Source: Styela clava
Taxonomy: Eukaryota
Reading direction: 5' to 3'
DNA: 64,000 bases
Assembly (NCBI RefSeq): GCF_964204865.1
Contig: NC_135253.1
Location: 2,728,001 to 2,792,000 of the forward strand
Shown: positions 35,561 to 58,700 of the stretch, one piece after another
How positions within the stretch are numbered: position 1 is the first letter of the stretch
Layout: every line of letters starts with the position of its first letter
The notes under the pieces: generated by a model
Databases searched by the model: none
What the model saw: the letters and a program-made list of their open reading frames with translations, nothing else
What the model was told of the DNA's origin: nothing
Translations under genes and position numbers: made by a program

Positions 35561-36099
35561 TTTTAAAGCAAAAGGTGGCTATTCAATAGACAGGAAATAT
35601 GATTGCAAGGCAGGGCACATGAATTATGTTAGATTAACTTGGATTAAGTGATACCCATTTGGGAAAGTAGTTTTTTATACTGTGTATCCACAAAGTTACA
35701 ATAATCCTCCAGCTCTTCTGTGCGTACAGTGTATATGCAGAAATACTGGTAAGTTTTGTAAATATTATTTTACACATCAATGCTCATCTGATTGGTTCCA
35801 TGGTGTAAACACTTATTCGAAACGTGTGCAGGGAAACCAACCCCAACCAAATCTGGAAGATCGATTTGCAATCGAGAAAATACGTTATTGCCGACTCGAC
35901 GTCGCGCAGTGCGGACGTATTTGTGAGCATAAAATTGGATACAAGCTATCTTCTGTTTTGTGGATTAAACTGGACACAACACTACATCAATACGGTGAGA
36001 TCGTTTCTTTATATCTGGTCTGTATATACTTCTGTATAAAACGTGACTGAAATCCAGTACAAATTTTTTTCTGAGCGTGACCGTTTATCACGGATAAAG

Positions 36100-37330
36100 C
36101 TGTTTTGAGTTATAAGACGGACGGCGAGGAATCGCCAACCTTTCCGGAGTGGGGAAGAGGAAGGGGGACGATAGTAATTTTAAGGCCCCAAGTAAAGTAA
36201 AAATCCACACAATAAGTCAAGAAAATGACGTCACATACACCTACTTTGTTGTACAGGGTACTCAGAATAAGAGGAGAACGTACAATTCTATAGTTATACA
36301 TAGAAATTTAGTGCAAAACTTTGGAACCTTAAAATCGGTTCGTGTGCTTGGTTCTGGGGATTTAAAAATGGAATGTTCAAACGAAAAGCAAATTAAACTA
36401 TTGTTGGAATATATATGATGATATCGGCGATAGCACAACCAGCATTTCAGTGACGACGGAATTGTTTGTAAACAATTATCAAAAAACTAGAGTGATAATT
36501 AGCGATGTGCCAATTGACATGGCCGATAATTGTTTGTTGGACGCATTAGCTGCTGTTTTGTCTTTTCGAAGGCAAGTTTGTGCAGAGTATACCAGTTCTG
36601 CTTAGTTTTAACACATGCATTGTACCATCAATCGTAATTATCGTATCTATCGGCTTTATGCGATTCAGTACCAGAGTTTGCAACCTTCCGCCGATTCGTT
36701 GTTTTAAATGCATTAGATTGACAATGTAGCTAAAAATTGTCGTAGTTCAATTCACATCGCTGCATATGGTGGCTGCGAAGCATATAATCGGGAACGATTG
36801 ATTCAGAAAACAATTGCGACTACAAAACTACCGTATGAGGAGGCAAAGAACCATATTAGAGCAAACTTTTTCAGAACACATGCAATTTTCAGCAAGTGAA
36901 ATGATTTTCCGGCTCTTCCCAGTTGTTATGATTAGAAAGATATATTGTTAACATACAAGTCATCTCAACAAGCGCCTATTATCGATCAATCTAATCAAGT
37001 AAAAGAAGATAAGAATGCACCTATATCTCTGGACCCAATACAATTTTTTGATAAAAAATACGTTTGAGGTTTCTTGAAGTGGAAAAGAATGTGATGTTTA
37101 CTCTATTGTCTCGATTTCCGCTGGCGCTCAATTTGGTTTCGATGTCGACGCTGGCAACCTTAAAAATGCAATAAAACAGCATTCAACCAAAAAATAAAAC
37201 TAACTATCATCCAATAGAATATACCGGAACCTGGGAGAAATAAAATTTTTAATTCGTGCTTCACAACCAAAACCTGACTTGATAGCCCTTCAAGAAAGCA
37301 ATCTGATAGGATGCTTGTTATCTTAAAAGC
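36100..37330 (+). mobile_element. LINE (I-clade-like) 5' part: ORF1 gag-like and start of APE endonuclease
   Basis: NFGTLKSVRVLGSGDLKMECSNEKQIKLLL; LPPIRCFKC knuckle at ~36685-36710; TIIQ*NI..PKPDLIALQES at ~37203-37300. Confidence 0.7.
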
Positions 37331-37871
37331 AATCCTGAATAGAGCTCAGTTAAAAAAAAAGCACAAACTCTCGATTAACTATAGTTTAACCCAGCACACA
37401 AAATTCCCTCTGACCCAGTTAGGGCCCTAATTCGGCCCTAAAAAACGTTAGGGGTTTCGGCATAATAATCGTGTCTAAAATTGTACAAATTTCTACAAAA
37501 TAATAACGTAAAAAACATAAAATTGTAAGATAACAAAGAATTTATAACATAAATAATTGAGTGAATTGAGGTTATCTCTGATGCTAAAATAGTAATTCGA
37601 TTTTCACTAAAAATAACATATATAATAAAGATGATAGCAATGAAGTCAGTATATACTTATTTGTTTCTTTTTTTGTCATTTTTTTTTTCTGAAATATTTA
37701 TTCAAGTATATATATTCACCAAAGATAAATTTACATTTTATATAAGAAAAACATATTACCAAGAGAGGTGAAAATTTCAAGAAGGAGGATTGGGGTATAG
37801 ATTGGTTGGGTCATTGGAAGTATGGGGGGAATGTGTAGGTACAACAGTCCTGAGTGTCTTCTCTATTTGTT

Positions 37872-38715
37872 CTATTTAACTTTGGGCCAGGTTTTACAGG
37901 AATAAGTTCCAGAGCGGGGTTTTTTAAATCTACCGAAAAATTGCCTAGTTCTGTTATATACCGGCGTTGTTGAGGATCTTATTGGTATTGGTATCATACG
38001 CTTTATGAAGAATATGGTCAATACAATACCCCGAAACATAGCTATGTGCCATGCCAGCATGTATATGGCCGATAAAATCGGATGACTATAATAAATGATT
38101 TCAACTTTGTTTTTATTTATATTAAATTGATTGTTAGTATTGGATTTGAAGGACGGCTTGTGTTCCAATAATATCTTTTCGTTGATCAAGTTCAGATGAT
38201 TGATCGAAATTAGAATATTATTGAAATCTTCAAAGCCCGAGTGTCCTCCATGGAGCATATCTTTGAACATCTTTTGATATTCCACGACTTAAGGTTTTCA
38301 TTGATTCTTGTTAAAGTAGGCTATAAGATTGTATGTGGGCATGTGTATGAGTAAGAGTATAAGTTATATAAGTATAGTATCGCCCATTGATTGAAAAAGT
38401 AGACGTTCGTCCAGAAACGTAGTCTCCAAAAAATGTATACCTGCGTAGACATTCGTATCTGTGAATGGTATCATGGTATTATTATTTTTGTTTAGAAAAG
38501 TTACGATTGGCCTTGTCGCATACGTATTATTATAATATAATGAACGTAATATAGTAACATTTATATTCTCACAGTGTATTTCTGTGAGGATATCCCCTAC
38601 CGTTATAGCAGCATGTTTGCCTCCTAACACTTTATTCAAAATTTGACCTGGATATTGTTTGTTAATAATTGTACAATAATTATTTAGTAGTGCAAGCATA
38701 TTGACAGTTAAAATT
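37872..38715 (-). pseudogene. Env-like glycoprotein C-terminal half (copy C), gB-like; frameshifted
   Basis: KQYPGQILNKVLGGKHAAITVGDILTEIHCENINVTILRSL..YATRPIVTF..; hydrophobic TM PILSAIYMLAWHIAMFRGIVLTIFFI; clearly paralogous to 48010-48800. Confidence 0.75.
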
Positions 38716-39469
38716 TTTTTATGTATTGTAATGGTACAAAAAATAGTGGAACCTAATGTTATTAACGTAAAAGAAAGTAATATAAAGTTCAGGCAATTAA
38801 TATTTAACAGATAAAAAATATGTTAACGTACGTAAGAGATAATGCAAATGGAGAACGCACTGGCGACAAAAGAACTAAGAGCTGAGACTTTTTCTAGAGG
38901 CGTAGATGCCGCTTGCTTTGTATAATATTGGTTGGCATAATATGTACCTTTTGATTCGCATTTGACAAGGTCGTTCAACTTTGCCACCGTTATTTAAATG
39001 AGATAGATAGTAGCGCATCATATACCTATTTTGTGAATGGGGCCACCAGAGTATTGCCAAACAATAAAATTGTACCAGTGTAATGTAATGTGTATAATGA
39101 GGGAATATGTTTTCGTCGAAAAATGGAAATACAATATTATAATAACACAATATTACGCAAGAGTTCTAATTAACAAACCATGTAAATGCAATTCTGTTTT
39201 AATCGTTATGAAATTCTAATTTAGGCTATTTGTATTATTTCGTTCTTAAAAATAAATGATTCTGTTGTACAATGACCTCGCCACGTTTCAAAATAACAAA
39301 TTAGTAATTAGCCAGTTAGGGTTCGGGGTAGGAACGGTTTGGAAATTTGAATTTCCAGCGCAATCTGCATTCTGGGCCAAACCTTAACTGAATGATTCCT
39401 ATTTTTTTTTTTAATTTTTGAGCGTGGAAAGGGGTGTTTTGTTTAGTGGGGGCTTTGTACGAAAGATCC

Positions 39470-42400
39470 AAATTAATATATGACCCGATAAAATATCTTA
39501 TGATATTGTGAATTTTTTGCGGACTTTATATATATATACACCCTTTCCATTGTGTTATATTGTTTTAAAATATAGCTCGCAGTAAGCATGGGTGCCATGA
39601 AATGCAAGTTTACCCGAAAAGATTCTAAAAATGGTTTATTTTTTTGTAGCCTATATATCGCATCGACCAGTAATTGTCCAATGTCGGAATAACTTTTTGG
39701 AAACGAGGTGGACCTGTCCATCGTTTTGTCATTCTGTATTCTTATTATCGTTGTTATGAAAAAAAATCGCTTTTCTATCTTTGGAACGCAAAAGATCGTG
39801 TTTTTTCTGAAAAAAAGTACTGAGAATTTGTTGGATGCCTAGGAACTCTACATACTACTTCTCCTTTGTCGTTTTTCCGCTTCAAGCAGCGTTCTCCCGC
39901 TCTCGAATAATCATGCGTTGACATTTTGAGATACAACTTTTTGAGGTCATCGAAGTCGGAGGAATTTTCAACGATGCTTTTCTTCATGAGTGAATGACGC
40001 GTGACCCCGAACCGTTCGTCATTAAAAACAGTTTCGGGATTGCAAGAAATGCGACCCAGTGTTGTTTCCTCATCTTCGTCGAATAAAGCAGCGCCAATGC
40101 GGACGTGTGCTCTGTTGCCAGGTGATCCAGTTGATTGAAATTCCAAGCGGGCAAACATATGCTGTATTGGTCCAGCAGGCTGGTTTGGGCTGTTAACAAG
40201 ATATTTAAAAAAACGTTAATGAAACGAAGCCACATTCTATTAATCATACCCATGTTAGCATTATAAATTTGTGAATAATCAGAACTATACTTGCTCATTT
40301 TTTTCATACTACCGATAATCCGCATGATTCCTGGAGTGTGTACTTCGTTACATGTCATTGTCATCCAGTATTTCCAGGGATATTTTGCAGTGAGCGCTGT
40401 CAACTCCCGAATTTTAACATTGCTGTCAGAAACAGCGTAGGGAAGAGAGCTGTCTTGCGCTAAGCAGTGAAGCGATCTATTATCGGCGATATGTTCAAGT
40501 CCTCGTCTAATAACAAAGTTCAGATGGATGACTAATTAGTTTATCGTTGAGCTGATCAAAATAGGTATGCAAATTAGAATATTGTTGACTCGAAGGAAAA
40601 TGGTGATCGCGTATGCAGATCATATCATCTTTGAACCGTAGATATCTCGAAGTGCGAGAGGCGGATGCAGGACAGAATGTTCTTGATGCATGGCGCCAAC
40701 AGGGGAATTCCTTTCATCCCACAGAAAGTGGTCGGGAGATGTTGTGCTTCAGGAAAAAGTAAAGATGTTGTTGCGGACTCACTGGTACCAGAAAAGTGAT
40801 GAAGTAAGTTTTGTGTCTTCGCATTTTTTGTGTGGCGTACGTTTTTTTTAGAACCTGAAAAGTGTCATTCAGTAAAAAATGCAAAGGAAAGAAATCACTG
40901 CCAGCATTGAATGTAGGAATATTTGTTGCGAGAATGTGCAATAGACAATAAATATCGTGTTTTTCCTGAAAAAAGTACTGAGAATATGTTGGATGCCTAG
41001 GAAGTCTACATACTACCTCTCCTTTGTCGTTTTTCCGCTTCAAGCAGCGTTCTCCCGCTCTCGAATATTCATGCGTTGACATTTTGAGATACAACTTTTT
41101 GAGGTCATCGAAGTCGGAAGAATTTTCGACGATGCCTTTCTTCAGGAGCGAATGACGCGTGACCCTGAACCGTTCGTCATTAAACACAGTTTCGGGATTG
41201 CAAGAAATGCGACCCAGTGTTGTTTCCTCATCTTCGTCGAATAAAGCAGCGCCAATGTGGACGTGTGCTTTGTTGCCAGGGGATCCAGTTGATTGAAATT
41301 CCAAGCGGGCAAACATATGCTGTATTGGTCCAGCAGGCTGGTTTGGGCTGTTAACAAGATACCTAAAAAAAACGTTAATGAAACGAAGCCCCATTCTATT
41401 AATCATACCCATGTTAGCATTATAAATTCGTGAATAATCAGAACGATACTTGCTCATTTTTTTCATACTACCGATAATCCGCATGATTCCTGGAGTGTGT
41501 ACTTCGTTACATGTCATTGTCATCCAGTATTGCCAGGGATATTTTGCAGTGAGCGCTGTCAACTCCCGAATTTTAACATTGCTGTCAGATTCATCGTAGG
41601 GAAGAGAGCTGTCTTGCGCTAAACAGTGAAGCGATCTATTATCGGCGATATGTTCAAGTCTTCGTCTAATAACAAAGTTCAGATGAATGACTATTTAGTT
41701 TATCGTTGAGCTTAAGATCAAAATAAGTATGCAAATTAGAATATTGTTGACTCGAAGGAAGATGGTGATCGCGTATGCAGATCATATCATCTTTGAACCG
41801 TAGATATCTCGAAGTGCGAGAGGCGGATGCACGACAGAATGTTCTTGATGCATGACGCCAACAGGAGAATTCCTTTCATTCCACAGAAAGTGGTCGGGAG
41901 ATGTTGTGCTTCAGGAAAAAGTAAAGATGTTGTTGCGGACTCACTGGTACCAGAAAAGTGATGAAGTAAGTTTTGAGCCTTCGCATTTTTTCTATGGCGT
42001 ACGTTTTTTTTTTTAGAACCTGAAAAGTGTCATTCAGTAAAAAATACAAAGGAAAGAAATCACTGCCAGCATTGAATGTAGGAACATTTGTTGCGAGAAT
42101 GTGCAATGGACAATAAATATCGTGTTTTCCCGAAAAAGTACTGAGAATTTGTTGGATGCCTAGGAACTCTACCTACTACCTCTCCTTTGTCGTTTTTCCG
42201 CTTCAAGCAGCGTTCTCCCGCTCTCGAATAATCATGCGTTGACATTTTGAGATACAAATTTTTGAGGTCATCAAAGTCGGAGGAATTTTCAACGATGCCT
42301 TTCTTCAGGAGTGAATGACGCGTGACCCCGAACCGTTCGTCATTAAACACAGTTTCGGGATTGCAAGAAATGCGACCCAGTGTTGTTACCTCATCTTCGT

Positions 42401-44520
42401 CGAATGAAGCAGCGCCAATGTGGACGTGTGCTTTGTTGCCAAGGGATCCAGTTGATTGAAATTCCAAGCGGGCAAACATATGCTGTATTGGTCCAGCAGA
42501 CTGGTTTGGGCTGTTAACAAGATACTTAAAAAAACGTTAATGAAACGAAGCCCCATTCTATTAATCATACCCATATTAGCATTATAAATTCGTGAATAAT
42601 CAGAACGATACTTGCTCATTTTTTTCATACTACCGATAATCCGCATGATTCCTGGAGTGTGTACTTCGTTACATGTCATTGTCATTCAGTATTTCCAGGG
42701 ATATTTTGCAGTGAGCGCTGTCAACTCCCGAATTTTAACATTGCTGTCAGATTCATCGTAGGGAAGAGAGCTGTCTTGCGCTAAACAGTGAAGTGATCTA
42801 TTATCGGCGATATGTTCAAGTCCTCGTCTAATAACAAAGTTATTCAATTAAATTACTATCACATTGATCGGAATTTTGTACTGGCCTTGCGTGTTTTGCT
42901 CACTACATGTAGTAAGCATCAATCTCCGTTACAAACGTTCCCGAGGACAAATGTTTCTGAATAATTTCTTCGTAATAAACGCCAGACTTTTCTCTGCGAT
43001 GTACATCAGATAAAATTCTACATCCCGTCGTCTACCATGATCTCTAAAAAGTTTTTTTCTAATATCGTTACGTTGTCCTACTATTAAAGAATTAACCATG
43101 TGTTGGTCACGAGAAATAGTCATTTTAGAGGGGTTGGGATTTAGTGAGCATGACGATATTCTAAAATGCCCACCGCGTACGTCTATTACATGTCCTGAAG
43201 AATTCCATTGTTAAATTTTACCTAAACGTTTTGAATGTGGAATCTAGAAAGTCGCAACCTTGTTCAGCATGTGGTCGAAAAACGGGATTGGTTGGTGGAT
43301 GAAGTGTTGGACGTTTGAGAGAATCGTGCTTATTCTTGCACCATAAAATGCATATACCGTGTTCATCCGATACACATATCCCAGCTGCGCAGATGTATGT
43401 TTCAAAAAAGGGTCGTTGGTAAAGGCGGCCAATCAAGACGTGCTCCTCTGAATGTGTCTTGATAAGCTCCTATCAATTTGAGATCTGTGATACCTGTCAA
43501 ATAATGCAAGAATGGAATGTAGTCGCAATTTTCACAAAAATTCCCAGCAACCTAAGGGACATATGACTTCAGCAACGGGAAAGGCATTAAAAGCCTCTTT
43601 AATATATCCTATGTCATGAGTCCCGACGAGCGAGTTAAATGCATGAATATCGTGAGTACGATTTAGGAATCTACATGATGCGTTATTTAATTCCATCCCA
43701 CGCCACATATCCCCAATTGTGATGGTCAAGGCTGACCAAACTGTATGAGAAATAGAACGGTTGTGGCCAGTGAATGACAATTTAGACCAAAGAACGGTTG
43801 GTCAGGAGCAAAACCATGAGGTACTAATAGAACTGAAATTGGAACCTAAGTACTTAAAAACAGAGATCGCACAGTAATACCTGCAGTGGAGTTGCTTTAC
43901 AAAGTTTAATATATCCGTACTTTTTACCTGATACCTGATACGTAACTTAATATTATACTTAGCTTTATTATTTCTGCAGCAATTGGCACATTCCTTTGTG
44001 TCATGTACATTTCCTCGAAGATTCAAAGGTTATTCCGGTTTATCTGGCCGCTCCGTCCGCTGATGTATGCGATTGGTAGAAGTCATTTGTAAAGTAAAGG
44101 TTCGTAAAAAATCGGTGGCAGGTTGTGGTTTTGACTATGCTTCTAATGGTGCTTTTGCGTCTGCGGGTGAATTTATAAATGTTTGTAAATTGGGCAAAAT
44201 AGTCCAAAACGTCTGATTGGATTTGGCTAGCATCAAAGAAAGTTTGTGGTCTTTTCCATAACGAAGTCTTACACCCCCATCCTATCTCAAATTTGAAGAA
44301 GATTTCAATGAATCAACTATAGTCTCATAGAATCCATGAGATGGCATTCTCGGGAGATGCACTGAATGATCAGGACAGCTGGCAGCTTGTAGCAAGTTCT
44401 GAATTCGATGTTGAATGCTTAAGTCTCGAGCTAATGGTAATGAATTGATATTTCTTCTTTGGATTCTGTTCTGTTCGTCTGTTCTTTTCCTAAACAACAA
44501 CTTGTTATATATATATCATT
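39470..44520 (-). mobile_element. Degraded Helitron-like element: Cys-rich N-terminal region + HUH Rep core; helicase not seen
   Basis: Rep motif I YWMTMTCN; motif II FARLEFQSTGSPGNKAHVHI; downstream THDYS..RCLKR..CRVP; upstream VICPLGCWEF, GARLDW, LHPPTNP; boundaries uncertain. Confidence 0.7.
39795..42840 (-). repeat. Tandem array of a ~1160-bp unit covering the Rep core (39795-40953, 40954-42118, partial 42119-42840)
   Basis: Junction atcgtg at 39795, 40954 and 42119; near-identical ORFs repeated three times in the ORF track. Confidence 0.9.
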
Positions 44521-44829
44521 AGCGCGTGCATTGTCAGCCGATCTCAAAAATGGGAGAAGAGCTACGTAATGTAAGTCATTAGATAAATAACCAATATTAA
44601 CCACTTGAGAAAAAGGGCCAAACGAACCAAAATGTTTCGTCCTATCGTTCCATAAACGAATTGTTATTTGTTAGCGGATACAATGCAGCTATAGCATAAA
44701 AACAACATGTCTGAGCCCATTCACGATTGACCTAAATTGCTCGCATTATCCGGTTTATTAGGTAAGCCTAAGTATCGCATACCATCTATAATTGAAATGT
44801 AGGGCTGTAGGCGCAGTCGCCATCTCCAG

Positions 44830-45784
44830 AATTGTTTAAGAGTTTTATTTATTCGGGTTAAAATACTTTCCAGTTGACACTCCAGGTAATTAATGTCTCA
44901 CCATAAATTGCCAATTACCTCGGTTATCCTGCCAGTATTCTCCTGAATAAAGCCCGTAAACGTGCTAGAAACAAAATTCACCATTACGGAACTATACCTG
45001 AGTTTTGGGTATTTAGACTTGATGAATCCAGCGGTCGTCAATGGGTTACATTGGTCCGTCTCAAATGAAAGTCCATTATTCGTGCAAAATGTTTTTGTAC
45101 TAAAACATCATTGTACATACGCACCACATAAGCCCTACTGGTGAATACTAGTTCCCAATTCGGAAAAATCTAATCGGTAAATTTCACCTGACGTATTATA
45201 ATGCAATGCCATTTTTGATTTGAAATTTTTAAAAGGGGGGCAATCTATCAAGGGTAATTTTTCCAAATACTTGTCTGAGTACCTACAGTACAAGATCCCG
45301 AATTAATACTACAATCCTGAAAATGGACCTAATAGAGTGCCCTTAATATGGTCGTAATAAATTGTAGTAAATGCCAAATGTGCATTAAAAACTTCCCCAG
45401 TTGTCGTTGTTGGCCACTTGTATTCATATGCTACTTCATTATTAGTAGACCAAAAATTTTCTGAGGTTGATTTCAGATCACCTATATTTTCAGTCTTCAA
45501 AGAGTGCTTCCAATATTGGCAATATAAAGAAGTCGAAGGATCAGGCAGACATACAGTGTAATATTAGTATATGCTGACGATAATTTATGTGCTGTGGCAT
45601 TGCAATATTCTACTTGGGTGATTGGTTGTTTTTCACAAGTCGGTGGTTCCGTAATGGAGTATTCCGCAATGGTTACCTTGGGATCGCAGAAGTTCACTGA
45701 TACTGTTGGGCTCGAGGAATTAAGAGGTAAAGCAATAGAAATAATATATACGTCTGATATTAAACTAATAGTAAGCGTAATCAT
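44830..45784 (-). pseudogene. Env-like glycoprotein N-terminal half (copy B)
   Basis: Signal-like MITLTISLISDVYIISIALP; TVSVNFCDPKVTIAEYSITEPPTC; YRLDFSELG..FCTNNGLSFETDQC..GFIQENTGRITEVI, matching copy A; directly follows integrase. Confidence 0.75.
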
Positions 45785-45879
45785 GCTGGCGGTTCTGGCG
45801 AGTTGTTCTACCGGAACGCGTTGTTGTTGGCGGTTCAGGCCTGTTTAAAAACAATAACGCTGTTTCAGTACTCGGCTCA

Positions 45880-47445
45880 GTTGGTTTTTCAATGCCATAT
45901 TCAATATGCGCAAGTTTAATTTTATCTATATATACTAACAGTTTGTGGATTACCATTAATATCTACTTTATAGTATTTTGCATACATTTCCAACAATTTG
46001 AATGGACAAACATAAGGCGGTATTAAAAGTTTTTCAACTGCATTAACACGTAAAACTACGTGTGTGCAATCTTTTAGTTCCTTTGATAAAGAGGTTTTTC
46101 TATGTTGGGGGATTTTTGGATTGGCTGGTCTCAAGTCTTAAACGAATTGTCTAAGACGCGCTATAAACTCATAAGGGGATTCTATGTCCTCATTAATATC
46201 GTTTGAAACAAAATCCCCAGATAAACGTAACGACGATCTGTAAACTAATTCAGCCGATGATAAACTTAAATTTAATTTTATTGCCGTGCGTATCCCTAAC
46301 AAAACTAAACTTAAATTTTGATACCACTCATGGTTGTTTGAACATTGTGCCATGCGACTATATGGGTGATAAATTGTAGTGTATATATGCTGACCTAAGA
46401 ATTTTATCATTTTAGCCCATAAAGAACTTCTAAATTGAGCACCCCTGTCAGTAGTTATTACAGTAGGAGATCCAAATCAACTTACCCAGGATAAGAGAAA
46501 AGTTTTTACGACAGTTCCGGCAGTTATGTCTCGCATTGGCGTTACTTCGGCCCAACGGGTAAATTTATCAACCGTTATTAATAAATAAGAATAATCAAGG
46601 TCCAATTATATTCGTATTCACTTCTGAAAATCTTTTATTAGGAGCTAAAATGGGTTGTAATGGGGAAATGGTATGCCTCGTTTCTGGCAAGGTATACAAG
46701 CTCGACACATTTTCCTAATATCTGAATTCATATTTGGTCATGCATATCTAGCTCAAAGTCCCGGGTGGCTAAGGTTATGCAAGTAATCAAAAATCTGTTC
46801 AAAATCAAAGTTAACGCTTGAACTGAGGTATCAACAAAAGCTAATTGTAAACTCATTTGATTAGCTAGCAGTGCCTGTACTTCTGGGTCCCTATTTTGCT
46901 ATTGAGCGATCGAAGCAAGAGAAAGAGGAGGAGAAAGATCAGAAATTGCTGCAATTGTTGATCTGGAGAGCGCATCTGCTACGATATTTGCGGACCCGGT
47001 ATATATCTAATATCACAAGTAAATTGACTGATATAATCGAGATGTCTGCTTTGCCGAGGTGGCGTCTATGTTTTTATGCAAAGCAAATGAAAGAAGTTTG
47101 TGATGAGAAAGAATAAAGAATTCCCGACCTTGAACATAATAGTGAAAGTGTCGAATACTTAGATAGACTGCGAGAAGTTCTCGATCAAATGTAGAATATT
47201 TTTGTTGAGCGCTATTGAGAGCTTTGCTGAACACCACTGCTCTCCTATCTTTTGTTATAAGAAAGCGCCAACATCTGTTAGACTTGCGTCGACGGCTATA
47301 AAAAGTTCTGCATCGGGTTTCGGCTGATTAAGCATAATAAAATTACTCGGAGCATTTTTGGACTTTTCAAAAGCTAATTTAGTGTCGGCTGTCGATAGTA
47401 CAGGCTGATTTTTATTAACATGTAAAAAGATGTAAAAAGTTGTTC
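45880..47445 (-). mobile_element. Gypsy pol fragment (RNase H + integrase), element B
   Basis: FIAVDASLTDVGA; FSKALNSAQQKYSTFDRELLAVYLSIRHF; DKFTRWAEV; VLLGIRTAIK..SSAELVY..LRLSGDF; THVVLRVNAVEKLLIPPYVCPF..IDKIKLAH. Confidence 0.85.
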
Positions 47446-47533
47446 TCAAGTGGATAATTTGGTTTTAACAGGGTATTTCGAATTTACGTTGTTGAAAATA
47501 TATTGGAAATGAAATTTATTTTTACATGGGATG

Positions 47534-47682
47534 GCACCGGAAGGCTATGAAAATTTGAAATTGGATTTCGAGAAATTGATAATTGCTATTGCGGGAATAA
47601 TTAAATCTGTTTTTCATAAGTTTCTCACAAATTGGGCCAATTTGGTGTAGTTTTGTAGTTACATAACAACTAATTGGCTACA
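47534..47682 (-). repeat. 3' LTR (5' portion) of element A
   Basis: Direct repeat of 52640-52782, beginning TGTAGCCAATTAG on the minus strand. Confidence 0.85.
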
Positions 47683-47694
47683 TAACTCCCCTTC
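47683..47694 (-). promoter_or_regulatory. Polypurine tract
   Basis: GAAGGGGAGTTA immediately before the TG of the 3' LTR. Confidence 0.75.
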
Positions 47695-48009
47695 AAGAGT
47701 TCAGAGAATTCGAGGGATGCAATTTGGGCTGAGAAAGCGGAAATGACGTGCTGTCTTCATAAAATTCAACAAAAAATAAAGAATAATATTTAAGCTGTAT
47801 AAAGGTAGAGTGAATATAATTATTCCTGAGAAATTTATGCATGAGGTATATTATTGTTATAGACATTGGTGTAAATGCACAAAGTAATGCATTGTAAAAC
47901 ACATGCTAGAAAAAAATCATGTTAAAGTATAATATGTACAATATGAACATCGCTATTTGACTAATCTGCCAGACTATGGTAAAAGTTCGAATTGAATCTA
48001 TTATTGGGA

Positions 48010-49658
48010 TTTAGTCTAGCTTGAGAGATTTAACCCCCCCCCCCCTCAGTTTTGGGCAAAATTTTTTGATAAAACAAACGGTCCAAATAGTGGCCCAAAT
48101 GAGAGACAAATGGAATAAGAGCATATAAATACCTGATAAAATTGACGTGCTAATGAAGGAGAGAGCATGAGCAAAAGTGTCTTGCACTTCATGTGAGATA
48201 GCATCAGTATCAGTGTCTGATGTGCTATCTGTATTAGGTGGGTTTGCTCACTAAATATTCGTTCTCGAATAGGGTTAATGTAGCTGATTGATAATAACAT
48301 ATTATTTATATCATCATAACCCTGGTGTCCCCTTGGTAATTCGTTATATGCTTCATTGTAATTAATAGGATTAAAATTGTCGACAAAAGGCTTGGATGTG
48401 GGTCTCAATGATTTCAGCATGATTTAAAGTATAATTGACGTAGTTTTAGAACCGACCATCAATTTGAAAAGTGCGTAATAAAATATACGACCATGCGTAT
48501 AATTTTCAAAAAAAATGAATACCCACATAAGCGTTAGAATCAGGGAATATTTGTGCAATGATTGTTTCATTGCTATTAAAGTGCACTTAAGGTCGGGTAG
48601 CATATTTACCCTGAAAAAAAGAGGTTCCTAAGAACGGTAACGTTAATACGTTGGGATTCAATTTCGGTCAATATATCACTTACGATGATAGCTGCTCTGT
48701 TCCCACCTAGTAACTGACTTAGGGTCTTACCGGGGTATTGTTTAGACAGGCATTTAATATTAGTAGTTAGAATGCTTTCAAATTGGAATTCCAAATAATT
48801 AATATCAATTTGTTGATTACTTCGGAAACCCTATCAGTGCTTTCTTGAATAAAACCAACTAGAGGAGAAGATTCTGAAAAATTCTTAACACTATAATCGT
48901 ATTTAAAGGCAGGATATTTGAGAGTAAAAAGGGATGAACCACTAAGTGCAATGCAGTGTTGCGTTTCGAATAACAAACCATTATTTGAACAAAAAGTGTC
49001 AGACTTAAAACATCTTTTAACTGACTTGCCATATGAACCCCAATTATGGATTGATTGCCGAAGTCTTGGAAAATCTAAGCGGTAAATCTGGTTAGAAGAA
49101 TTATAATGTGAAATAAGTTCGGCAACAGTTGTTTCGAATTGAGGACAATCAATTAAAGGTTGGTGTTTCCAAATTAAAGTTTGACTACCTAACGTGCATG
49201 ACCCAGGTAATATGTCGCAGGTGGAAATTGACGGGGAAGATCCTAAGATTACCCGATGAAAAGGATCACATACGAAAATTGAATACGAGACAAATAAGCA
49301 TTGATCACTTGTCTGTGTCTAGAGCATGGCCAACTATAGGTAACTTTTACCTTATTTTAAGTGGACCAAGTATTTGGGGAAGTGGGTTCTAAATCTCCAA
49401 TATTATCAGCTTTTAACGTGTGTACCCAATCTTCACAATATAAAGGGGTGGGTGGTTCTATCATGGTGGAAGTCAGTTTATTCGGTTCCCTAGTACGCTA
49501 CAATTATTAGGCTTCTGAATGAAGTATCCAGCTTTGGGTCTATTGGGATGGCATAGGTTCACTGTAACTGTTGGAGTTGGTAAAGCAGATTTAAATGGCA
49601 GACTAGACAAATAAACAAAAAGATACATACAGTTTGCAAGGCACTTAATAGTAAACAT
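48010..49658 (-). pseudogene. Env-like class III (gB-like) glycoprotein of element A, frameshifted
   Basis: Signal-like MFTIKCLANCMYLFVYLSSLP; VTVNLCHP..IQKPNNC; YRLDFPRL..FCSNNGLLFETQHC; KQYPGKTLSQLLGGNRAAIIVSDIL..NVTVLRNL..YATRP*VHF..IAQIFPDSNAYVG..NYVNYTL; C-terminal hydrophobic segment. Confidence 0.75.
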
Positions 49659-52095
49659 ATTCGTCTCTCTGCGCCGGTCTGCTTGTTCTTCCGTGTCGAG
49701 TCCTTGATTGTAATTATCCCGAACCTTGATGATTGCTATTAGATTCCTCGTTCTGCGTAATAAGTAAAAAGTCGTCAATATCGGTGGATATTGGTACGTT
49801 ATATCTGTGTATTAGTACGTCAAATTCAGTAGTTGGGGTAGTTGAATTAGAAATGTTCTGAGTATCGGGAGTAAAAATCTCTTCATGAGCCGGCTTAACT
49901 CTATCAATAAAAACAGTGGTAGGTTTGCCTTTAAAATCAATCCTAAAACAATTACTGTATTTTTGTATAACACGAAAAGGTCCTTGATGAGGCGGTACCA
50001 GTGGTCTTCTAACTGCGTCAACAGGTAGAAATATGTGACTGCAAGTATTCAATTCCGGTGATAAGAATGTCTTTCTATTTTGAGGTGTTCTCGGTTGGAT
50101 TGGTTTTAACTTATTGATGACATTGTTCAAGCGTTTCAAAAACGCCTGACGGTTAGTGTTGATACCCGCTTGGTTGGTCGAGAAAAATTCTCCAGGTAAT
50201 TTCAATGGTGTTCCATAGAGCAGTTCAGCGCTACTGTATCCTCAGTCTTATTTAATCGCAGTTCGCATGCCAAGTAGAACTAAATCTAAGTTTTGATACC
50301 AATCTGCAGTATTCCGGCAGTGGGTCATAAAAGATGCTTTTAATTGTCGTATTTGTCTTTCAACAGCTGCATTTGAGGCTGGGTGATAGCTAGTTGTTGA
50401 GATAGAAGAAATTCCATTGCTTCTTGCCATAGAATACTTTGATGACAACCTCCACGGTCACTGGTGATAATTGCAGGTACGCCATATTTAGAAATTCCAG
50501 AACAGGAAAAATGTTTTAACTACTGTTTCAGCTGTAATGCCTTTGATAGGAATAGCTTCAACCCATCTAGTAAATTTGTCCACAACGAGAAGTATATAAT
50601 TATATCCGTTAGATGGTGGTAAAGGTCAAACAATGTCAATATTAACATGGTAGAATCTTTCGTCTTGAGTTACGATAGTTTGCAAAGGTGATATGGTGTG
50701 AATTTACATGATTGACGAGAAATACACGCTCGGCACATGTTCCTAATGTCAATGTGCATGTTTGGCCAAATGTATCTTGCTTGAATAGGATCTTGAGTTG
50801 CTCGAATTCCAGGGTGACTTAATTGATGATTCGTATTGAATATACGTTTTCGGAATTTCTTCGGAATAACTGGGCGTGGTGTAGGTAGTTTTGAATCGCA
50901 TAATAGATGTAAATCGTCACTACATTTCACAAATCGTAACTCCATGCTTTTAGGTTCATTGTACAAGTTTTGAATTCTTACGTTGTTCCAAAGCGATGTA
51001 AGACAATGTTAGAGTTGTAGGCAAGTGAGAGAATGCGGCGATTGTCGCTCTAGGCTAGACAAAGCATGGGCTACCACATCACTGCTTTCATCAATATATT
51101 TCATGTCATTTGTGTTTTGACTTCAAGATGATCAAGATGACGAACATGTCGTGGAGATGATCTTTCGGCAATTTTGTGTAGGACATACTTCAATGGTTTA
51201 TGGTCAGATAGAATGAAAAACAATCGTTCTTCCAAATCATATTGAAAAAGTTTGACACTTAGATAAGCAGCCAGTAGTTCCCGATCAAAAGTAGAATTTT
51301 TCCGTTGGGCTGGATTTAACGATTTTGAGAAGAATCCTAATGGTTCCCATTATTTATTTCTCTTTTGTTGTAATACATTTCCAATAGAATCTCCTAAAGC
51401 GTCCACCGCAAGAGATATTTCTGCTTCTGGGTCTGGGTGGTTCAATAATGCAAAATCAATCGATGTATTTTTCGATTTCTCAAAAGCTTCGTCGTGTTCT
51501 TTGGTCCAAGTAATTTTCTGATACTTGTTCGAATAATGAGAGCACATTTTATGAGGTGGAGCCAATATGTTAGCACAATGAGGTAAACATTTTTGGCAGA
51601 AAGTATATATTCCCAAGTAAGCACGTAGCTGTCGATTGGTTTTCGGACGCGTATAGTTCCTTAAAGCATGTACCTTTGATTCGATAGGTCTTATTCCTAT
51701 ATTATTCACATGATATCCAAGAAATGTTAATTCAGGTACTCCAAACAGACATTTGTCAAAATTAAGTATTAGACTGTAGTCGTGTATTCTTTGAAAGTTG
51801 TCTAAGATGCTTTTCGTGTTCTTTCAGTGATTTGGAAAATACCAAAATATCGTCGACATAAGCGAAAACATTTGGAATATTGCAGATTACCATGTCGATG
51901 AATCTTTGGAAAGTCGATCCAGAATTTTTAGTGCCATATGTAGTCACGTGATATCGAAATGCGCCAAAAGGTGTAACTACCGTTGTTTTGTCCATGTCTT
52001 CGGATTTCATCGGAACTTGATGATAAGCAGATCGCAAGTCAACCTTCGTAAATATTTCCGATCCATGGATTATCATGAGGTTGCGCGTTCATAAA

Positions 52096-52110
52096 ACGTC
52101 GGAATCACCA
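52096..52110 (-). promoter_or_regulatory. Primer binding site complementary to the tRNA-Trp 3' end
   Basis: TGGTGATTCCGACGT, two transitions from TGGTGACCCCGACGT; lies 2 nt after the LTR end ...AATCGCTATA. Confidence 0.75.
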
Positions 52111-52112
52111 AA

Positions 52113-52782
52113 TATAGCGATTGGTTACCACTATACATAAATTGTTTGTTGATTGATCCTGTTTGTGGATCATAACTCCAGCATTGACTGACAATAATTT
52201 TTTTTTGCGTTCGTTAACTTGAACTGTCTATCTGTCGATAGCCTCCAGGGAAAAAAAAAAAGAGACTGTCGATAGCAGTAAAGAGACGTTTGAAACACTT
52301 TATGAGTTTTATTGCAATTCTGACAATATACACAGAAATACAGTACACACACAATTAGATCAAATCTAACACATAAAACACATTGCATAATTTTTTGCTT
52401 TCTACAAAGCAATTGAAATATAATAAAAAAACGGATTTTTACATTAACAATTAAAAAAATAACGCGTCATCCCGGTTTCTGGGTATCTTTCGGTATACTA
52501 TAATGAAACATTAAAAGTGTTTTCTTAAAGTTCATTACAGTACTAGCAATTAACTTGTTTTTGCCAAGTCATCGAGTCCTGGTCACGTACTTACTTCAAT
52601 TATGAGATGTAAAAAGGGGGGGGGGGGGGGGGGGGGGGGGCACCGAAAAGCTATTAAAATTTGAAATTCGAGAAATTGATAATTGCTATTGCGGGAATAA
52701 TTAATTTTGTTTTTCATGGGTTTCTCACGAATTGGGCCAATTCGGTGTAGTTTTGTAGTTACATAAGAACTAATTGGCTACA
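52113..52782 (-). repeat. 5' LTR of element A
   Basis: Starts TGTAGCCAATT and ends AATCGCTATA (imperfect terminal inverted repeat); followed by PBS; contains a 25-nt G run (52616-52640). Confidence 0.7.
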
Positions 52783-54830
52783 AGCATTGCAGATGTCTGG
52801 AAGCGCTCTGTTGTAATTCCGATTCTGAAAACCAACAAACAAAAAGACCAGCCGTCTTCATATATGCCTATATCTTTAACTAGCAATTGATGTGAGGCTT
52901 TAGAATGAATAATAGTTCGCCGGCTGAAGTGGTTTATCGAAAAAAATGGCATATATGTAGATAACAAATTGGTTTTAGGTGAAGAAGATCTACGCCTGAT
53001 GCATACCTAAAATTACACGATGAAATATATATATATATATATATAAGGCTTTACCAAATGAAATAAAAGATGTGTATTTGCATTTCCCTAGACACGGAAA
53101 AAAAGCTTTTTCTAAACATGGAAAAGGCTTATGACATGATATGGAAATAACGCCTGTTATACAAACTGTACAACAATCGTGTCACTGGAAAAATTTGGCT
53201 TTTTGTTGCATTTTTTCTGGCGAATCGCTCATTTCAGGTTAGAGTAGTTTCAAGTATTTTCTCATTAGAAAACGGAGTTCCTCAAAGGAGCGTAATTAGT
53301 CTACTGCTTTTCAATATAATGATAAACGATATGCCTAGTACTGTTCCATCAGATAATGTTGGATTGTTTGCGATATCGCTCTATGGCACATTGGGCTCAA
53401 AATCGAAGATTTAATCGTTTCCTTTCAGAATTCATTGGATTGTATTCAGTCCTGGTGCAATCAATGGGGTTTCAAGATCTCGGTCACAAAATCAATAGTT
53501 GTGCTCTTCACCCGAAAACGGAAGTTATCTCCAATCCAAATCATCTCTTTTGTCATTGTACAGATCCCTAGTTCGACCCATTATTGAATATGGTATGGAA
53601 GCGTATTTTTCAGCCCCAATGTATGCCATAAGAAAAATAGAAATGATCCAATCTCAATGTCTACGCACCGCCCCAGGTGACATGATGAGTACGCCTATAA
53701 GTTTATCTTTACAAGTTTGCTCCATCGAAATGCCATTGAATATACGACGACTACAATTATGTCTCTTAAATAAAGCTAAACTGCTAACATTTGTTGACCA
53801 TCCTCGCCACGAAGTCATCGATTACTCATGGCATTGAGATATTTTCCAACTCTTCAACATTTCGTAGATTTGGTATGATTGCTAGAATTTTCGATATATA
53901 TTACCAACTTGAACATTAGTATTAATGAAGCCGAAGAAATTCCACCATGGTTTTTGGATGAAATTGATATTGACAATACATTATCGTATATACTTTTCCC
54001 CTGGTATACGCCTGACCAAACAAAAGCTATATGTTTAGATTATATAAATGAATCCTATCAATCACACGTGCACATCTATACGAATGGACCAAAAATTGAT
54101 GACAAATGCGACGCTGCGGTTTAGGTTCCATGTGATAATTACGTATGGGTTTTAGGCTGGTCATAGACTGTTCCTCGTTTGATTGCGAAGTTTTTGCAAT
54201 CTATAGTGCCCACACATGGTCAAAACATAACTATAGATGGAATATAGTAATAATTTCGGATGGTATATCTGCCATTCACGCTATAAATAATAACTCGGAT
54301 AAAATTAGTAATTTATTAGTAAATTAGTAATTTACTATGGGCTCCTGGACATGTTGGCATTCCGGGTAACAAAATAGCAAAAGTATCAGCGGCGAAAGTC
54401 GATGTGGACAAATGATTATCCCAATCACACAACGATTCACAAATTCGACAATCCTGCGCCAATGAATGGGATCAACATGTTATACACAATGACCAAGCAT
54501 TTCATTACAAGATAATTTTCCCTCTATTGAAGACAGCACCAGGAATTTCACGTGGTTACCACGAATAATGGACAAAATTCAATTTCGACTTCAGACAGCA
54601 CATTAAACAAGCACCTTCATAAAATAGGATGCCATAATAATGGACTACGCGATTGCGGTAATGTATTAAAAAAAATAGAACATTTCCTATTGAACTGCCG
54701 TGCATAGAGATGAAATGCCGCGATTATGACATTGATTTTAAAATCAGCGCTATATTGAGCAACCCCAGCATTCTCCCTTCTCTACTTGATTTGGTCAAGT
54801 CCACCAAGAGAGTACTATAGGCATATAAAT
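52783..54830 (+). mobile_element. LINE ORF2 relic: RT + RNase H (I-clade-like)
   Basis: WKRSVVIPILK..SSYMPISLTS; MEKAYDMIW; ENGVPQRSVISLLLFNIMINDM; LYRSLVRPIIEYG; HIYTNGPK; WAPGHVGIPGN. Confidence 0.85.
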
Positions 54831-54834
54831 AGTT

Positions 54835-55250
54835 TGGTTCAAATTGTTTGGCGCAAAATACTACACTCACACATACTACACACACTGCCGTCTGTTGCTA
54901 CTCCGAGGTGCAAAGTATCATGTTGTTGAATATTATTTAAGGCATTTTGAACAGTCATCCGATAGATGGATAGTTTATTTGAATACTCCATGATATACAC
55001 AAATTTAAAATGGAGAATTCTGAAGTTGACGCACAATCTATAACTCTGGTGTTGTTTTGCACAATGGCTGCAACATTTTCCTCGATTTGAGTTCCAGGCG
55101 CAAAAAAAGTAGTCGGTCACCTTTGCTGATGATGCTTCACCTTCAACACCTGTTTTATGCTTGGAACTCTCAACGTGCAACTATAAGCTGAGCTTGCCTT
55201 CATTCGCCACAGAAACGAAAGTGCCGTAGCCCAGGCTAAATAGTTTGAAC
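54835..55250 (-). mobile_element. hAT-like transposase fragment
   Basis: HVESSKHK (BED-finger end) and LGVATDGS in ORF 54839-55180. Confidence 0.4.
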
Positions 55251-55704: not shown

Positions 55705-58700
55705 ATGTCCGCTTTTAACACTCCTTTATTCAACCGCATTATTGTACCATTGTCGTTTGTGTCTACTCTCGCTGGAGGAGTGATATTGCTCAAGTAAGTT
55801 GAAATTGAAAATATTTGCTCTGTTGATCGGAGTAACGGTTATATCAGCACTATCACATGCAAAATTTATGGTTTTCAAGGGAAATATAAACAAGTTGTCA
55901 GTAAAACGAATCCCTTATGATAGTACTGCAAGGATCCTAAATCAATGAAAATTTTCATTTTTCTTTTTAATCACTTATAAATATTGACCAACTACACTAA
56001 TGCGTTGACTTAAATGAAACCTGGAAACTCTATTGTAGTTCCTTCAACTATGTCTGTATGTGTGCCTCACTTTTCCATCATATGAAAAGCCCAACGAACT
56101 TCGGGTCTCGTGTAGTTTCGTACCTGACGTACTTCTAGTAGGCGTAGCCTAACAATTTTTTGATATGTCAATCCTAACCCCCATCTGACTACGCCATTCA
56201 AAAATTACGTCACTACGACATCATAATCAGGTCATAGAGCTTGCCAAATGTACGTACGATCGCCGAAATGGCATTGGCGCCGACGATAAAGAACAGACTG
56301 ACGTTATGACGACTAAGGTGCAGGGATGGTTATGTGCGAGAGGATTGCTGGACTCCTCGCCGTCGTTGGGTGGTTCACGTAACCGCTGGTCGGTTACGGC
56401 TTCCTCCACCACCAAGTCCATGCTTCCGAAAACAAACAATACAGTAAAAACTAATCCCATACCCGACTTGGAATGGTAACCGGACGAGAGGCCGTGGTTC
56501 GCCATATGGATAAGTCATCTTATCGGCTTTCCTCTCTCCTGGGATAAATATGTAAATCCTATCCTATCGATCTCTCTCCTATTGGAACCTTTGCGACGAG
56601 AAAACGAGAGAAATAACTGTTCGATTTCGGGTGCTTGTTTGCGCGTCTAGGATGGCAGTTCATATAGTTTGAAGGGCTCTATTACGTCACTGTGACGTCG
56701 TAATAATGTAATTTTGGATGGTGTGGGGGTTAGGATTGATACATTACACATTATCAATTTCATTCTCAATTTTTGCTCATTTCCGGACATTTCTGTTATA
56801 TAATTTGTTGTTTCCATTGAGTTTTGTGTTTTCAAATTATCGAACTAAATTTATTGATATATAATCGGTTCGAAAACAAACTATTCATCTGATAAGTGAA
56901 AGGCAATTGATAAAATTTAATGACCTGTATATCGCAGGCGACTCCGTAAAAAAGGTGAAATAACTATTTTTACAATTATAGAGAATACAAAGGTGGAAGA
57001 AAATGTCCTTCTAAAGAGCAAATGAAAGAAAAAGTTTGTGTTATAACTGGTGCAAATGTTGGTATTGGTAAATCAACAGCTGAGGAACTTGCAAGACGAG
57101 GTAATGACTTATTTCATATGTAACTGCTCAGTTGTGCAGTGACTAATTACAGTTATACATTATCTGTGATGGACTATATTGAATCATCATTAAATAGGGT
57201 ATCCTTTTTTCAGGTGCTACTGTAGTGATGGGTTGTCGTCATATAGGAAAATGTGAAAGAGCAGCAAGAGAAATAAGAACGAATACAGAAAATTCCAATG
57301 TTGTTTGCAGATTTATTGATTTGGCTGATTTAGACTCAGTAGAAGAATTTGCTGGAAATGTACGGAAGGGTAAAAGCTCATAACTGATATATCAGAAAAT
57401 TTGGCTCGGTCCTTTTATACTAAATAAAAAAGGTTATCTAACAAGCGTCAAAGCTTAATTTGGATGTAAGTGGATTATTTTATGATGTTTAGATATGCTG
57501 TGCTGTTTATACTCATTTCGTTTTTCTACTTTTCAAGTATATTTTCTGCAAAATTCATCATACCATACCCACTTGCCAATATTCGATTATATGGAGTGAT
57601 TTGGATTTGGAGAATTTTTGCTATTGCATTTTATATATGAATATTCTGCACATTCCTATAAATATAATCAATGTTTCTATTTACAGAGCTACCACATATA
57701 GATGTTTTGATAAATAATGCATGTGTTATGAAACCGAGGCCTCCAAAGACAACACCTCGCACAAAAGATAATTTCGAAAGACAGTTTGGTGTCAACTATC
57801 TAGGTATATGCAAGTATTTATTATTGTTTTTCATTGTGTTAAGGTCATTTTTATTTAAAATTGTGAAAATTATACACAGCAATTCCATAACACATTTAAT
57901 CAATTTTACTATATCAAGGTCTTGGTGGTTTGCTATTTTTAGAATGCCAATTGGTAGCAGTAACACTGATGTATTTACCATAATTCATTTTTCACTTTCA
58001 ACCAAATACTTTTCAAACGACGAGACAAATCAAGTGATGTCACGGAGTGACAAAAAGTTGAATGCATAAAATGACTGCAATATATCAACCAAATTTCGTC
58101 AAAAGCTTCATGACATATCAATAATAATAACTTGTCTCTATATTCTTAGAGATATTTATCTCTACATTTATGCAAAATTTATTGTACAACAAACATTTTT
58201 CAAGAAGCAGCCCAATTATATGGCCGAACTAGTCGCATGTCACTCCGTGACGTCACGAAGTGACAAAAAATCCTTGTCATTAAAATGTTATTAAGAATGT
58301 TGAACAATTAGTTGTATTAGGTCAAAATTGGTTGTTTGTTTGTAATTACAAAACATTTAAACAAAAAATTGGGAAACACTCCTATATATCTGGAATCTTA
58401 TTGCAGTAACTTGACAAAGAATGGGCAATTCAAAATACAGAATCTGGAGGATCCGTTAAAAGGATCCGTGCAATTCAGCTTAAAAAAATTTGCACCATGC
58501 GACGATTTTTGTTATTGGGATATCTAATTTATTAAACATAGAAAAGCATTTCCTTTTGTGTTGAAGTCTCTCTTGTTAGGTAGTACTTGCATCTGCTTGC
58601 AAAGCACACATAGAATCGGTAGGCCCCAAACACAGTTTTCTTAGTCTGCATATTCAGAACAAGAAAACAGTGATAAATATGTCCCTGCGAAAATTCGTTA

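What the first reader, a model, noticed from the sequence alone, without database searches (positions are those of the whole stretch)
37872..49658. Three mutually divergent env copies within 12 kb
Seen: copy A (48010-49658), copy B N-half (44830-45784, after its own integrase) and copy C C-half (37872-38715). They share protein motifs (GFIQESTDRVSEVI / GFIQENTGRITEVI; KQYPGKTLSQLLGG / KQYPGQILNKVLGG; YATRP) but differ strongly at nucleotide level. B ends at ..ECQLESILTRINKTLKQF, whereas C reads ..NMLALLNNYCTIINKQYPG over the same residues. So B and C overlap with different sequence and are not one split copy. Inference: an old, diversified env-bearing family whose env was conserved while active, accumulating in the same orientation at one site (insertion preference or a piRNA-cluster-like trap).
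Basis: partly seen in the sequence, partly recalled or inferred. Interest (0 to 1): 0.7.

Follow-up and report, generated by a model that had tools for sequence, protein, structure and literature searches.

The report
Two decayed enveloped retrotransposons, one split
The three envelope-gene pieces are two broken virus-like jumping genes, likely of a sea squirt, one of them cut in two by a piece of another transposon; the kind is already described, though uninterrupted relatives sit elsewhere in this genome.

Summary
The env-like pieces are real, but there are two copies, not three. On a natural uninterrupted relative, B covers env codons 0-346 and C covers 345-645, sharing only 7 nt. A is a second lineage (52% amino-acid identity between lineages). 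Both are Ty3/gypsy elements with a herpes-gB-type env, matching the published tunicate 'C3' errantiviruses (PMC13524379); NCBI names the nearest proteins Styela clava. Both lie in one LINE copy 1.33 kb apart and were likely fused by a deletion. Env was under purifying selection between lineages (dN/dS 0.14) and drifts near neutrally in the dead copies. I found no support for a one-strand trap: 2 of 5 elements in 264 kb are on +, 3 on -. Side result: uninterrupted gag-pol-env copies of three lineages exist here, where that survey listed none for this species. The scan noted this kind before in other genomes.

The parts
35894..37304 (+). 5' part of a LINE copy (zinc-knuckle ORF1; the family's ORF2 has RT and RNase H), the target of both gypsy insertions
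   Evidence: 77-84% identity to uninterrupted LINE copies L124 and L125; Pfam on L125
37306..37425 (-). Remnant (last ~115 nt) of the 3' LTR of element B/C
   Evidence: 81% to the end of the family-2 LTR in L039
37777..38660 (-).
   Evidence: Covers family-2 env codons 345-645; weak Pfam Glycoprotein_B, E 0.048
38661..44830 (-). 6.17 kb insert that splits the env: internal piece of a Rep/PIF1 Helitron-like ORF (39784-44838 and ~38860-38920) with a 1.16 kb unit in three tandem copies (39791-42841) and an unrelated ~0.87 kb stretch (38921-39790)
   Evidence: Self-blast 96% repeats; relatives with 2871-aa ORF carrying OTU, PIF1, GIY-YIG; protein map residues 164-1685; 7-nt overlap at the junctions
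44831..45784 (-).
   Evidence: Covers family-2 env codons 0-346, 3 stops; junction with the insert bridged by one contig of run X1
45768..47421 (-). Pol remnant of element B/C (RNase H and integrase); its 5' LTR, gag, protease and RT are absent from the window
   Evidence: 80% to L038 and L039 pol; Pfam RT_RNaseH, rve; no gag hit in the window
47428..47682 (-). First 255 nt of the 3' LTR of element A, joined to B/C pol through a short duplicated filler
   Evidence: 91% to family-1 LTR; junction printed
47961..49658 (-).
   Evidence: 92% nucleotide identity to uninterrupted family-1 env; 15 gaps, 4 stops
49659..52079 (-). Pol remnant of element A (part of RT, RNase H, integrase); gag and protease deleted
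   Evidence: 91% to L035, L036, L043; Pfam RVT_1, RT_RNaseH_2, Integrase_H2C2
52094..52782 (-). 5' LTR of element A, followed by a primer-binding-site-like TGG stretch
   Evidence: 12 of 149 aligned bases differ from its own 3' LTR
52783..54862 (+). 3' part of the same LINE copy; 1.33 kb of the LINE is missing between 37304 and 52783
   Evidence: L124 4228 maps to 37304 and L124 5560 to 52783

Best explanation
The region holds two dead Ty3/gypsy LTR retrotransposons of different lineages, each with a herpes-gB-type env; B and C are the two halves of one env split by a Helitron-derived insert, and the two elements were likely fused by a deletion after inserting separately into one LINE copy. 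Shown: element anatomy, contiguity of B and C, the insert's identity, the LINE on both sides, duplication of the block on the same contig. Inferred order: (1) element B/C inserts into the LINE; (2) a Helitron piece lands in its env, likely by microhomology-primed repair, since both sides share a 9-nt word and the piece lacks its natural ends; (3) A inserts about 1.3 kb away, likely later, since it has diverged half as much from its family; (4) a deletion of about 5 kb removes the rest of A's 3' LTR, the LINE spacer and B's 5' half; (5) the block is duplicated. In the active families env is predicted to be a class III membrane-fusion protein kept by purifying selection, likely for cell-to-cell spread; in the window it is non-functional and decays neutrally.
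For: B ends and C starts within 7 nt on uninterrupted relatives. One pol lies upstream of B and one 3' LTR remnant downstream of C, none between. Both halves are equally far from the sister subfamily (third positions 0.45 and 0.44). The same C junction is in two paralogs; in the older paralog the Helitron piece runs on to residue 2686 of 2871. gB identity: Pfam E 5.8e-8 and 6.6e-6, cytomegalovirus gB E 0.0014, fold search E 1.2e-17. Ty3 Gag-Pol is the top solved-structure hit for pol, E 1.7e-97. dN/dS 0.14 between live subfamilies; 0.56-1.45 in 5 of 5 dead-paralog comparisons, all intervals including 1. A dN 0.053 against 0.11-0.12 for B and C. Another env copy split by a LINE insert occurs at L121.
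Against: B is further from the family-2 reference than C at third positions (84/316 against 52/289; about p 0.01 by hand), while a control copy differs less between halves (0.223 against 0.195, L119); this fits a mosaic progenitor but is not explained. No paralog with an unsplit env at this locus was found. The gB scores are below Pfam's cut-off of 43 bits, and the model is weak (mean pLDDT 50, TM-scores about 0.2). The order of steps 2-4 is not fixed by a paralog: the older duplicate has a deletion across A's position. The dead-paralog intervals are wide.
Confidence: 0.93

Rival explanations
1. B and C come from two related family-2 copies that were joined at homologous positions (recombination or a deletion through the Helitron piece), so three insertions contributed.
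For: Third-position divergence differs between the halves (0.27 against 0.18). The insert lacks natural Helitron ends, so deletions did occur near the junction.
Against: It needs two independent breaks to fall within 7 nt of each other on a 1.9 kb gene. No second pol, LTR or env half is present.
Confidence: 0.04
2. The site is a piRNA-cluster-like trap or an insertion hot spot that collects env-bearing elements on one strand.
For: Two lineages lie side by side, and a second close pair of different lineages lies at G000:C18 16.98-17.00 Mb; 0.19-0.34 pairs within 20 kb are expected under uniform placement. The Helitron piece is also on the - strand. The block has been duplicated more than once.
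Against: Only two elements; the host LINE and one further LINE are on + (2 of 5). Recognisable transposon protein is confined to this nest and one LINE in 264 kb. 0 of 60 other env loci hit this LINE family. Family copies are spread over most of the 19 large contigs. The library was only 14 proteins, so other transposons were missed.
Confidence: 0.1
3. The arrangement is an assembly artefact (collapsed or misjoined repeats).
For: The surroundings are 62% self-repeated against 3% and 12% in two control stretches. A 98-99% identical block lies 0.48 Mb away.
Against: Paralogs at 93-95% identity share the C junction. One contig of run X1 bridges the B junction (44608-45100), though X1 may be the assembly's own source.
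Confidence: 0.02
4. One of the env pieces is a domesticated host gene.
For: None found.
Against: All pieces carry stops or frameshifts, and paralog pairs evolve near dN/dS 1.
Confidence: 0.01

Closest known systems
HSV/gB-type env-carrying Ty3/gypsy 'ancient errantiviruses' of ascidians, cysteine configuration C3 (Chary and Hayashi, eLife 2026, PMC13524379; elements of Ascidia mentula, Aplidium turbinatum, Clavelina lepadiformis)
   Same: LTR-gag-pol-env order in uninterrupted relatives; gB-type env; no furin motif; the ten domain I-II cysteines have spacing 19-34-72-7-17-38-7-7-12 here and 19-34-72-7-17-40-7-7-12 in Amen_errantivirus_1 (counted by eye); primer site resembling the Trp-type site listed for Clep_errantivirus_1 (2 mismatches, by eye).
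   Different: The window copies are dead and rearranged. The survey lists no Styela element and marks its Styela clava assembly 'yes - No intact copies', whereas G000 holds uninterrupted copies of three lineages. LTRs here end TG...TA.
Herpesvirus glycoprotein B and related class III fusogens (chu-, nyami-, rhabdo-like virus G)
   Same: Sequence match over the central helix and crown region; fold-search matches.
   Different: 11-17% identity; shorter (646-648 aa); encoded by a retrotransposon; fusion activity untested.
Helitron-like rolling-circle transposons (Rep/PIF1 helicase with OTU and GIY-YIG domains)
   Same: The insert derives from such an ORF.
   Different: Neither natural end is present, and the junction shows a 7-nt overlap with microhomology; canonical Helitron insertion leaves no duplication (recalled, not from a call).

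Membership tests
Ty3/gypsy LTR retrotransposon | Pol order protease-RT-RNase H-integrase, closest to Ty3 | tested here: met
   Pfam order in L035 and L038 pol; top PDB hit Ty3-G Gag-Pol, E 1.7e-97. Window copies keep only parts.
Ty3/gypsy LTR retrotransposon | Paired LTRs, primer-binding site, short target duplication | tested here: met
   L039: 631-nt LTRs 99.8% identical, GGCC on both sides, TGG site after the 5' LTR. In the window both elements have lost one flank, so no duplication can be read.
Ty3/gypsy LTR retrotransposon | Placement by Gypsy Database profiles or an RT tree with reference elements | not testable with these tools
   No such profiles or references were held; no tree was built.
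HSV/gB-type errantivirus (PMC13524379) | gag, pol and env uninterrupted, in this order | tested here: met
   Met by relatives: 4 of 16 loci (L035, L036, L043, L038) and 1 of 20 (L113). Not met by the window copies, which are decayed members.
HSV/gB-type errantivirus (PMC13524379) | Env resembles herpesvirus gB in sequence and fold | tested here: met
   scores below Pfam cut-off and a low-confidence model, but three methods agree.
HSV/gB-type errantivirus (PMC13524379) | Signal peptide and C-terminal transmembrane segment | tested here: inconclusive
   Hydropathy peaks at residues ~553-580 in both families and at the N-terminus of family 2 only; no dedicated predictor was run.
HSV/gB-type errantivirus (PMC13524379) | Tunicate C3 cysteine pattern in domains I-II | tested here: met
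   Ten cysteines with matching spacing (one reference counted by eye). Disulphide pairing itself was not examined.
HSV/gB-type errantivirus (PMC13524379) | Multiple copies over 98% identical across over 98% of the three ORFs | tested here: met
   L036 against L043 99.5% over 6156 nt; L038 against L039 99.4% over 6212 nt; L113 against L112 99.0% over 7264 nt. L039 and L112 have a break in pol.
HSV/gB-type errantivirus (PMC13524379) | 'Mini' domain between RNase H and integrase (ancient group) | not tested
   The bridge is about 85 aa in both families and was aligned, but not folded.
HSV/gB-type errantivirus (PMC13524379) | Trimeric env, fusion activity, infectious particles | not testable with these tools
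   Only a monomer model was made.
One-strand piRNA cluster | Dense transposon fragments mostly on one strand | tested here: not met
   5 elements in 264 kb, 2 on + and 3 on - (small library).
One-strand piRNA cluster | One-strand small-RNA production | not testable with these tools
   No run on record as RNA was listed.
Canonical Helitron insertion | Natural termini present, no target duplication | tested here: not met
   The insert starts inside the ORF (residue ~164) and does not match the family's 3' end; 7-nt overlap.

The most novel reading that the evidence does not exclude
This ascidian still carries at least three mobile lineages of gB-type enveloped retrotransposons that spread between cells through their env, missed by the published survey of this species; the dead copies in the window are their fossils and might feed silencing small RNAs. 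That would give a lab-accessible invertebrate chordate in which to ask whether gB-type errantiviruses are infectious.
Probability: 0.3. Interest if true: 0.55.

Novelty: new member of a known kind. Interest (0 to 1): 0.2.

Why it matters
The locus itself is an ordinary nest of dead transposons. The useful result is the side finding: young, uninterrupted gB-type elements of three lineages in a species recorded as having no intact copies (PMC13524379, supplementary file 6), and in a group of ascidians (Stolidobranchia; classification recalled) with no element in that paper's ascidian list. Purifying selection on env between lineages suggests the protein served the element. The parts of the paper that I read report predicted structures, not tests of infectivity.

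Tried and rejected
Three independent copies: rejected. B's missing 5' half on the far side of A, which would make A nested in B: not found by blastn or tblastn in the window. A single composite insertion with contiguous LINE flanks: rejected, 1.33 kb of LINE is missing. Preference for this LINE family: 0 of 60 loci. Retrotransposed Helitron transcript as the insert: no poly(A) at the junction. dN/dS between families 1 and 2 could not be computed (synonymous sites saturated). Expression: no RNA holder listed; a lay of guessed-RNA runs on a family-2 relative gave no result, so expression and env splicing stay open; high-depth contigs of run X5 over short env and integrase stretches are not evidence, since the run type is a guess. 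Independent confirmation of junctions in run X9 was too shallow (depth 0.8 at the B junction). Protein search found only 4 relatives, all named Styela clava (lengths 355-1131 only). Literature: three searches; the listings showed no paper on these elements in this species; I read only the listings there. Scan notes for this genome and sequence: none. Clusters on C8, C14, C16, C20 and C42 were judged tandem duplicates from equal scores, not fetched (one C8 and one C20 locus outside these clusters were).

Full report
Observation. Six-frame translation shows env-like sequence on the - strand at all three places with the motifs quoted. The window is G000:C4:2728001-2792000 of a 377 Mb genome. A search with a 183-aa piece of A gave 82 matches, including 7 with a 699-aa open frame (family 1, 84-87% to A) and 4 with a 666-aa frame (family 2). 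These natural uninterrupted copies served as references.

B and C are one copy. On L022, B ends at 2041 (window 44831) and C begins at 2035 (window 38660); all six family-2 loci L021-L026 give this 7-nt overlap. In codons, B covers 0-346 and C 345-645. Upstream of B lies one pol remnant (45768-47421); downstream of C lie the 3' region and the last ~115 nt of an LTR (37306-37425). One result is against: B is further from the reference at third positions than C (84/316 against 52/289), more than in a control copy (75/336 against 56/287); both halves are equally far from subfamily 2b.

The insert. 38661-44830 contains a 1.16 kb unit in three copies. It matches a dispersed family whose ORF of 2871 aa carries OTU, PIF1 helicase and GIY-YIG domains; residues 164-1685 map to the window. 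In an older paralog at C4 2.12 Mb the same C junction is present and the ORF runs to residue 2686, so the original insert was most of a Helitron-like ORF, later deleted and triplicated in part. The left junction falls inside the ORF at a 9-nt word shared with env; neither natural end is present. I infer repair-associated insertion or later deletion rather than clean transposition.

Element A and the surroundings. A has a 5' LTR (52094-52782), a pol remnant without gag and protease, env (49658-47961) and 255 nt of its 3' LTR, which joins B's pol through a short duplicated filler. Both outer flanks belong to one + strand LINE copy, with 1.33 kb of it missing. The simplest history is two insertions 1.3 kb apart followed by one deletion of about 5 kb. 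A's LTRs differ at 12 of 149 bases; A has dN 0.053 from its family against 0.11-0.12 for B and C, so A is likely younger. The block recurs at C4 3.24-3.27 Mb at 95-99%, and in pieces at 2.12 and 2.31 Mb at 78-95%.

What the protein is. Uninterrupted env hits Pfam Glycoprotein_B below cut-off (E 5.8e-8, 6.6e-6) and cytomegalovirus gB (E 0.0014). A low-confidence model (pLDDT 50) matches herpes gB structures at E 1e-17 with TM about 0.2 and viral class III proteins. Pol is Ty3-like. The protein search returned four relatives, all named Styela clava by NCBI, one at 99%, so the host is likely that ascidian. Uninterrupted gag-pol-env was seen in 4 of 16 loci and 1 of 20, covering three lineages, with LTR pairs 99.8-100% identical over the stretch held (L035, L043, L039, L113) and copies 99.0-99.5% alike.

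Selection. Codons were compared one by one against natural frames, and codons touching a gap were dropped. Family 2 against 2b: dN/dS 0.14 (0.10-0.18). A, B and C against their families: 0.47, 0.23, 0.42, as expected from a mix of selected lineage divergence and neutral decay. Dead paralog pairs: 1.38, 1.11, 0.56, 0.83, 1.45, with wide intervals that all include 1.

Clustering. From I took 108 hit positions (one per place, overlapping frames dropped); 91 lie on C1-C19 and merge to 76 loci. Expected pairs within 20 kb under uniform placement are 0.19-0.34 for 60-80 loci; I count two pairs of different lineages, this one and C18 16.98-17.00 Mb. That is a mild excess, as expected where dead elements persist in repeat-rich regions (inference). 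A strand test on 264 kb with a 14-protein library gave 8 clusters, which reduce to 5 elements: 2 LINEs on +, two gypsy and the Helitron piece on -. The region is 62% self-repeated.

Comparison with what is known. PMC13524379 (read: abstract, section 5 part 1 of 2, sections 6, 7 and 14, passages on tunicates, and rows of supplementary files 1, 2, 4, 5 and 6; figures not seen) describes gB-type env-carrying Ty3/gypsy elements across animals, with 9 ascidian elements from three species and a tunicate cysteine pattern C3. The spacing of ten cysteines matches. Its Styela clava row reads 'yes - No intact copies' for a 340 Mb assembly. So the elements work like, and belong to, a known kind; the uninterrupted copies in G000 add a species.

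Verdict. The headline (three divergent copies, trap) does not hold. The locus is an ordinary nested, duplicated transposon graveyard of two gB-type errantivirus lineages. Interest 0.2; new member of a known kind.

Noticed in passing
L036, L043, L035 (family 1); L038 (family 2); L113 (family 3): Uninterrupted gag-pol-env copies with near-identical LTRs or sister copies, in a species listed without intact copies in PMC13524379.
   Followed up: partly
window 39791-42841: Three tandem copies (96%) of a 1.16 kb Helitron Rep piece; single in the older paralog at C4 2.127 Mb.
   Followed up: yes
G000:C4 2.129 Mb and 2.314 Mb (L072, L050): The older paralog of this locus is itself broken: it stops at window position 43297 and resumes at 43290 about 185 kb away.
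   Followed up: partly
L119 5367-8922 and L120 4589-6777 (C18 16.98-17.00 Mb): A second group of env pieces from different lineages on one strand; related Helitron copies lie 140 kb away.
   Followed up: partly
L121 (C5 18.375-18.382 Mb): A family-1 env split into pieces by inserts, including a LINE with a 952-aa ORF.
   Followed up: partly
window ~49490 and ~45545: A and B each have a deletion over the conserved aromatic FFFG stretch near env residue 92, which may be a fusion loop (inferred); the older B paralog lacks the deletion, so it is probably coincidence.
   Followed up: no
L111, L115, L117, L047 and others: Several copies keep LTRs and an open env but have lost gag and pol: non-autonomous env-only derivatives.
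   Followed up: no
L039, L041, L047 LTR ends: LTRs of both families begin TG and end TA; 4-nt target duplication in L039.
   Followed up: partly
G000:C42, C14 21.3-21.6 Mb, C16 18.96-18.99 Mb, C20: Arrays of decayed distant env pieces, apparently amplified by tandem duplication.
   Followed up: no
window 7739-8005 (-), 57668-58066 and 60237-60545 (+): Host-like fragments: F5/8 type C domain and short-chain dehydrogenase pieces.
   Followed up: no
window 1-30000: Many 70-80% inverted repeat pairs (e.g. 1942-2532 with 23991-24592), part of a region that is 62% self-repeated.
   Followed up: no
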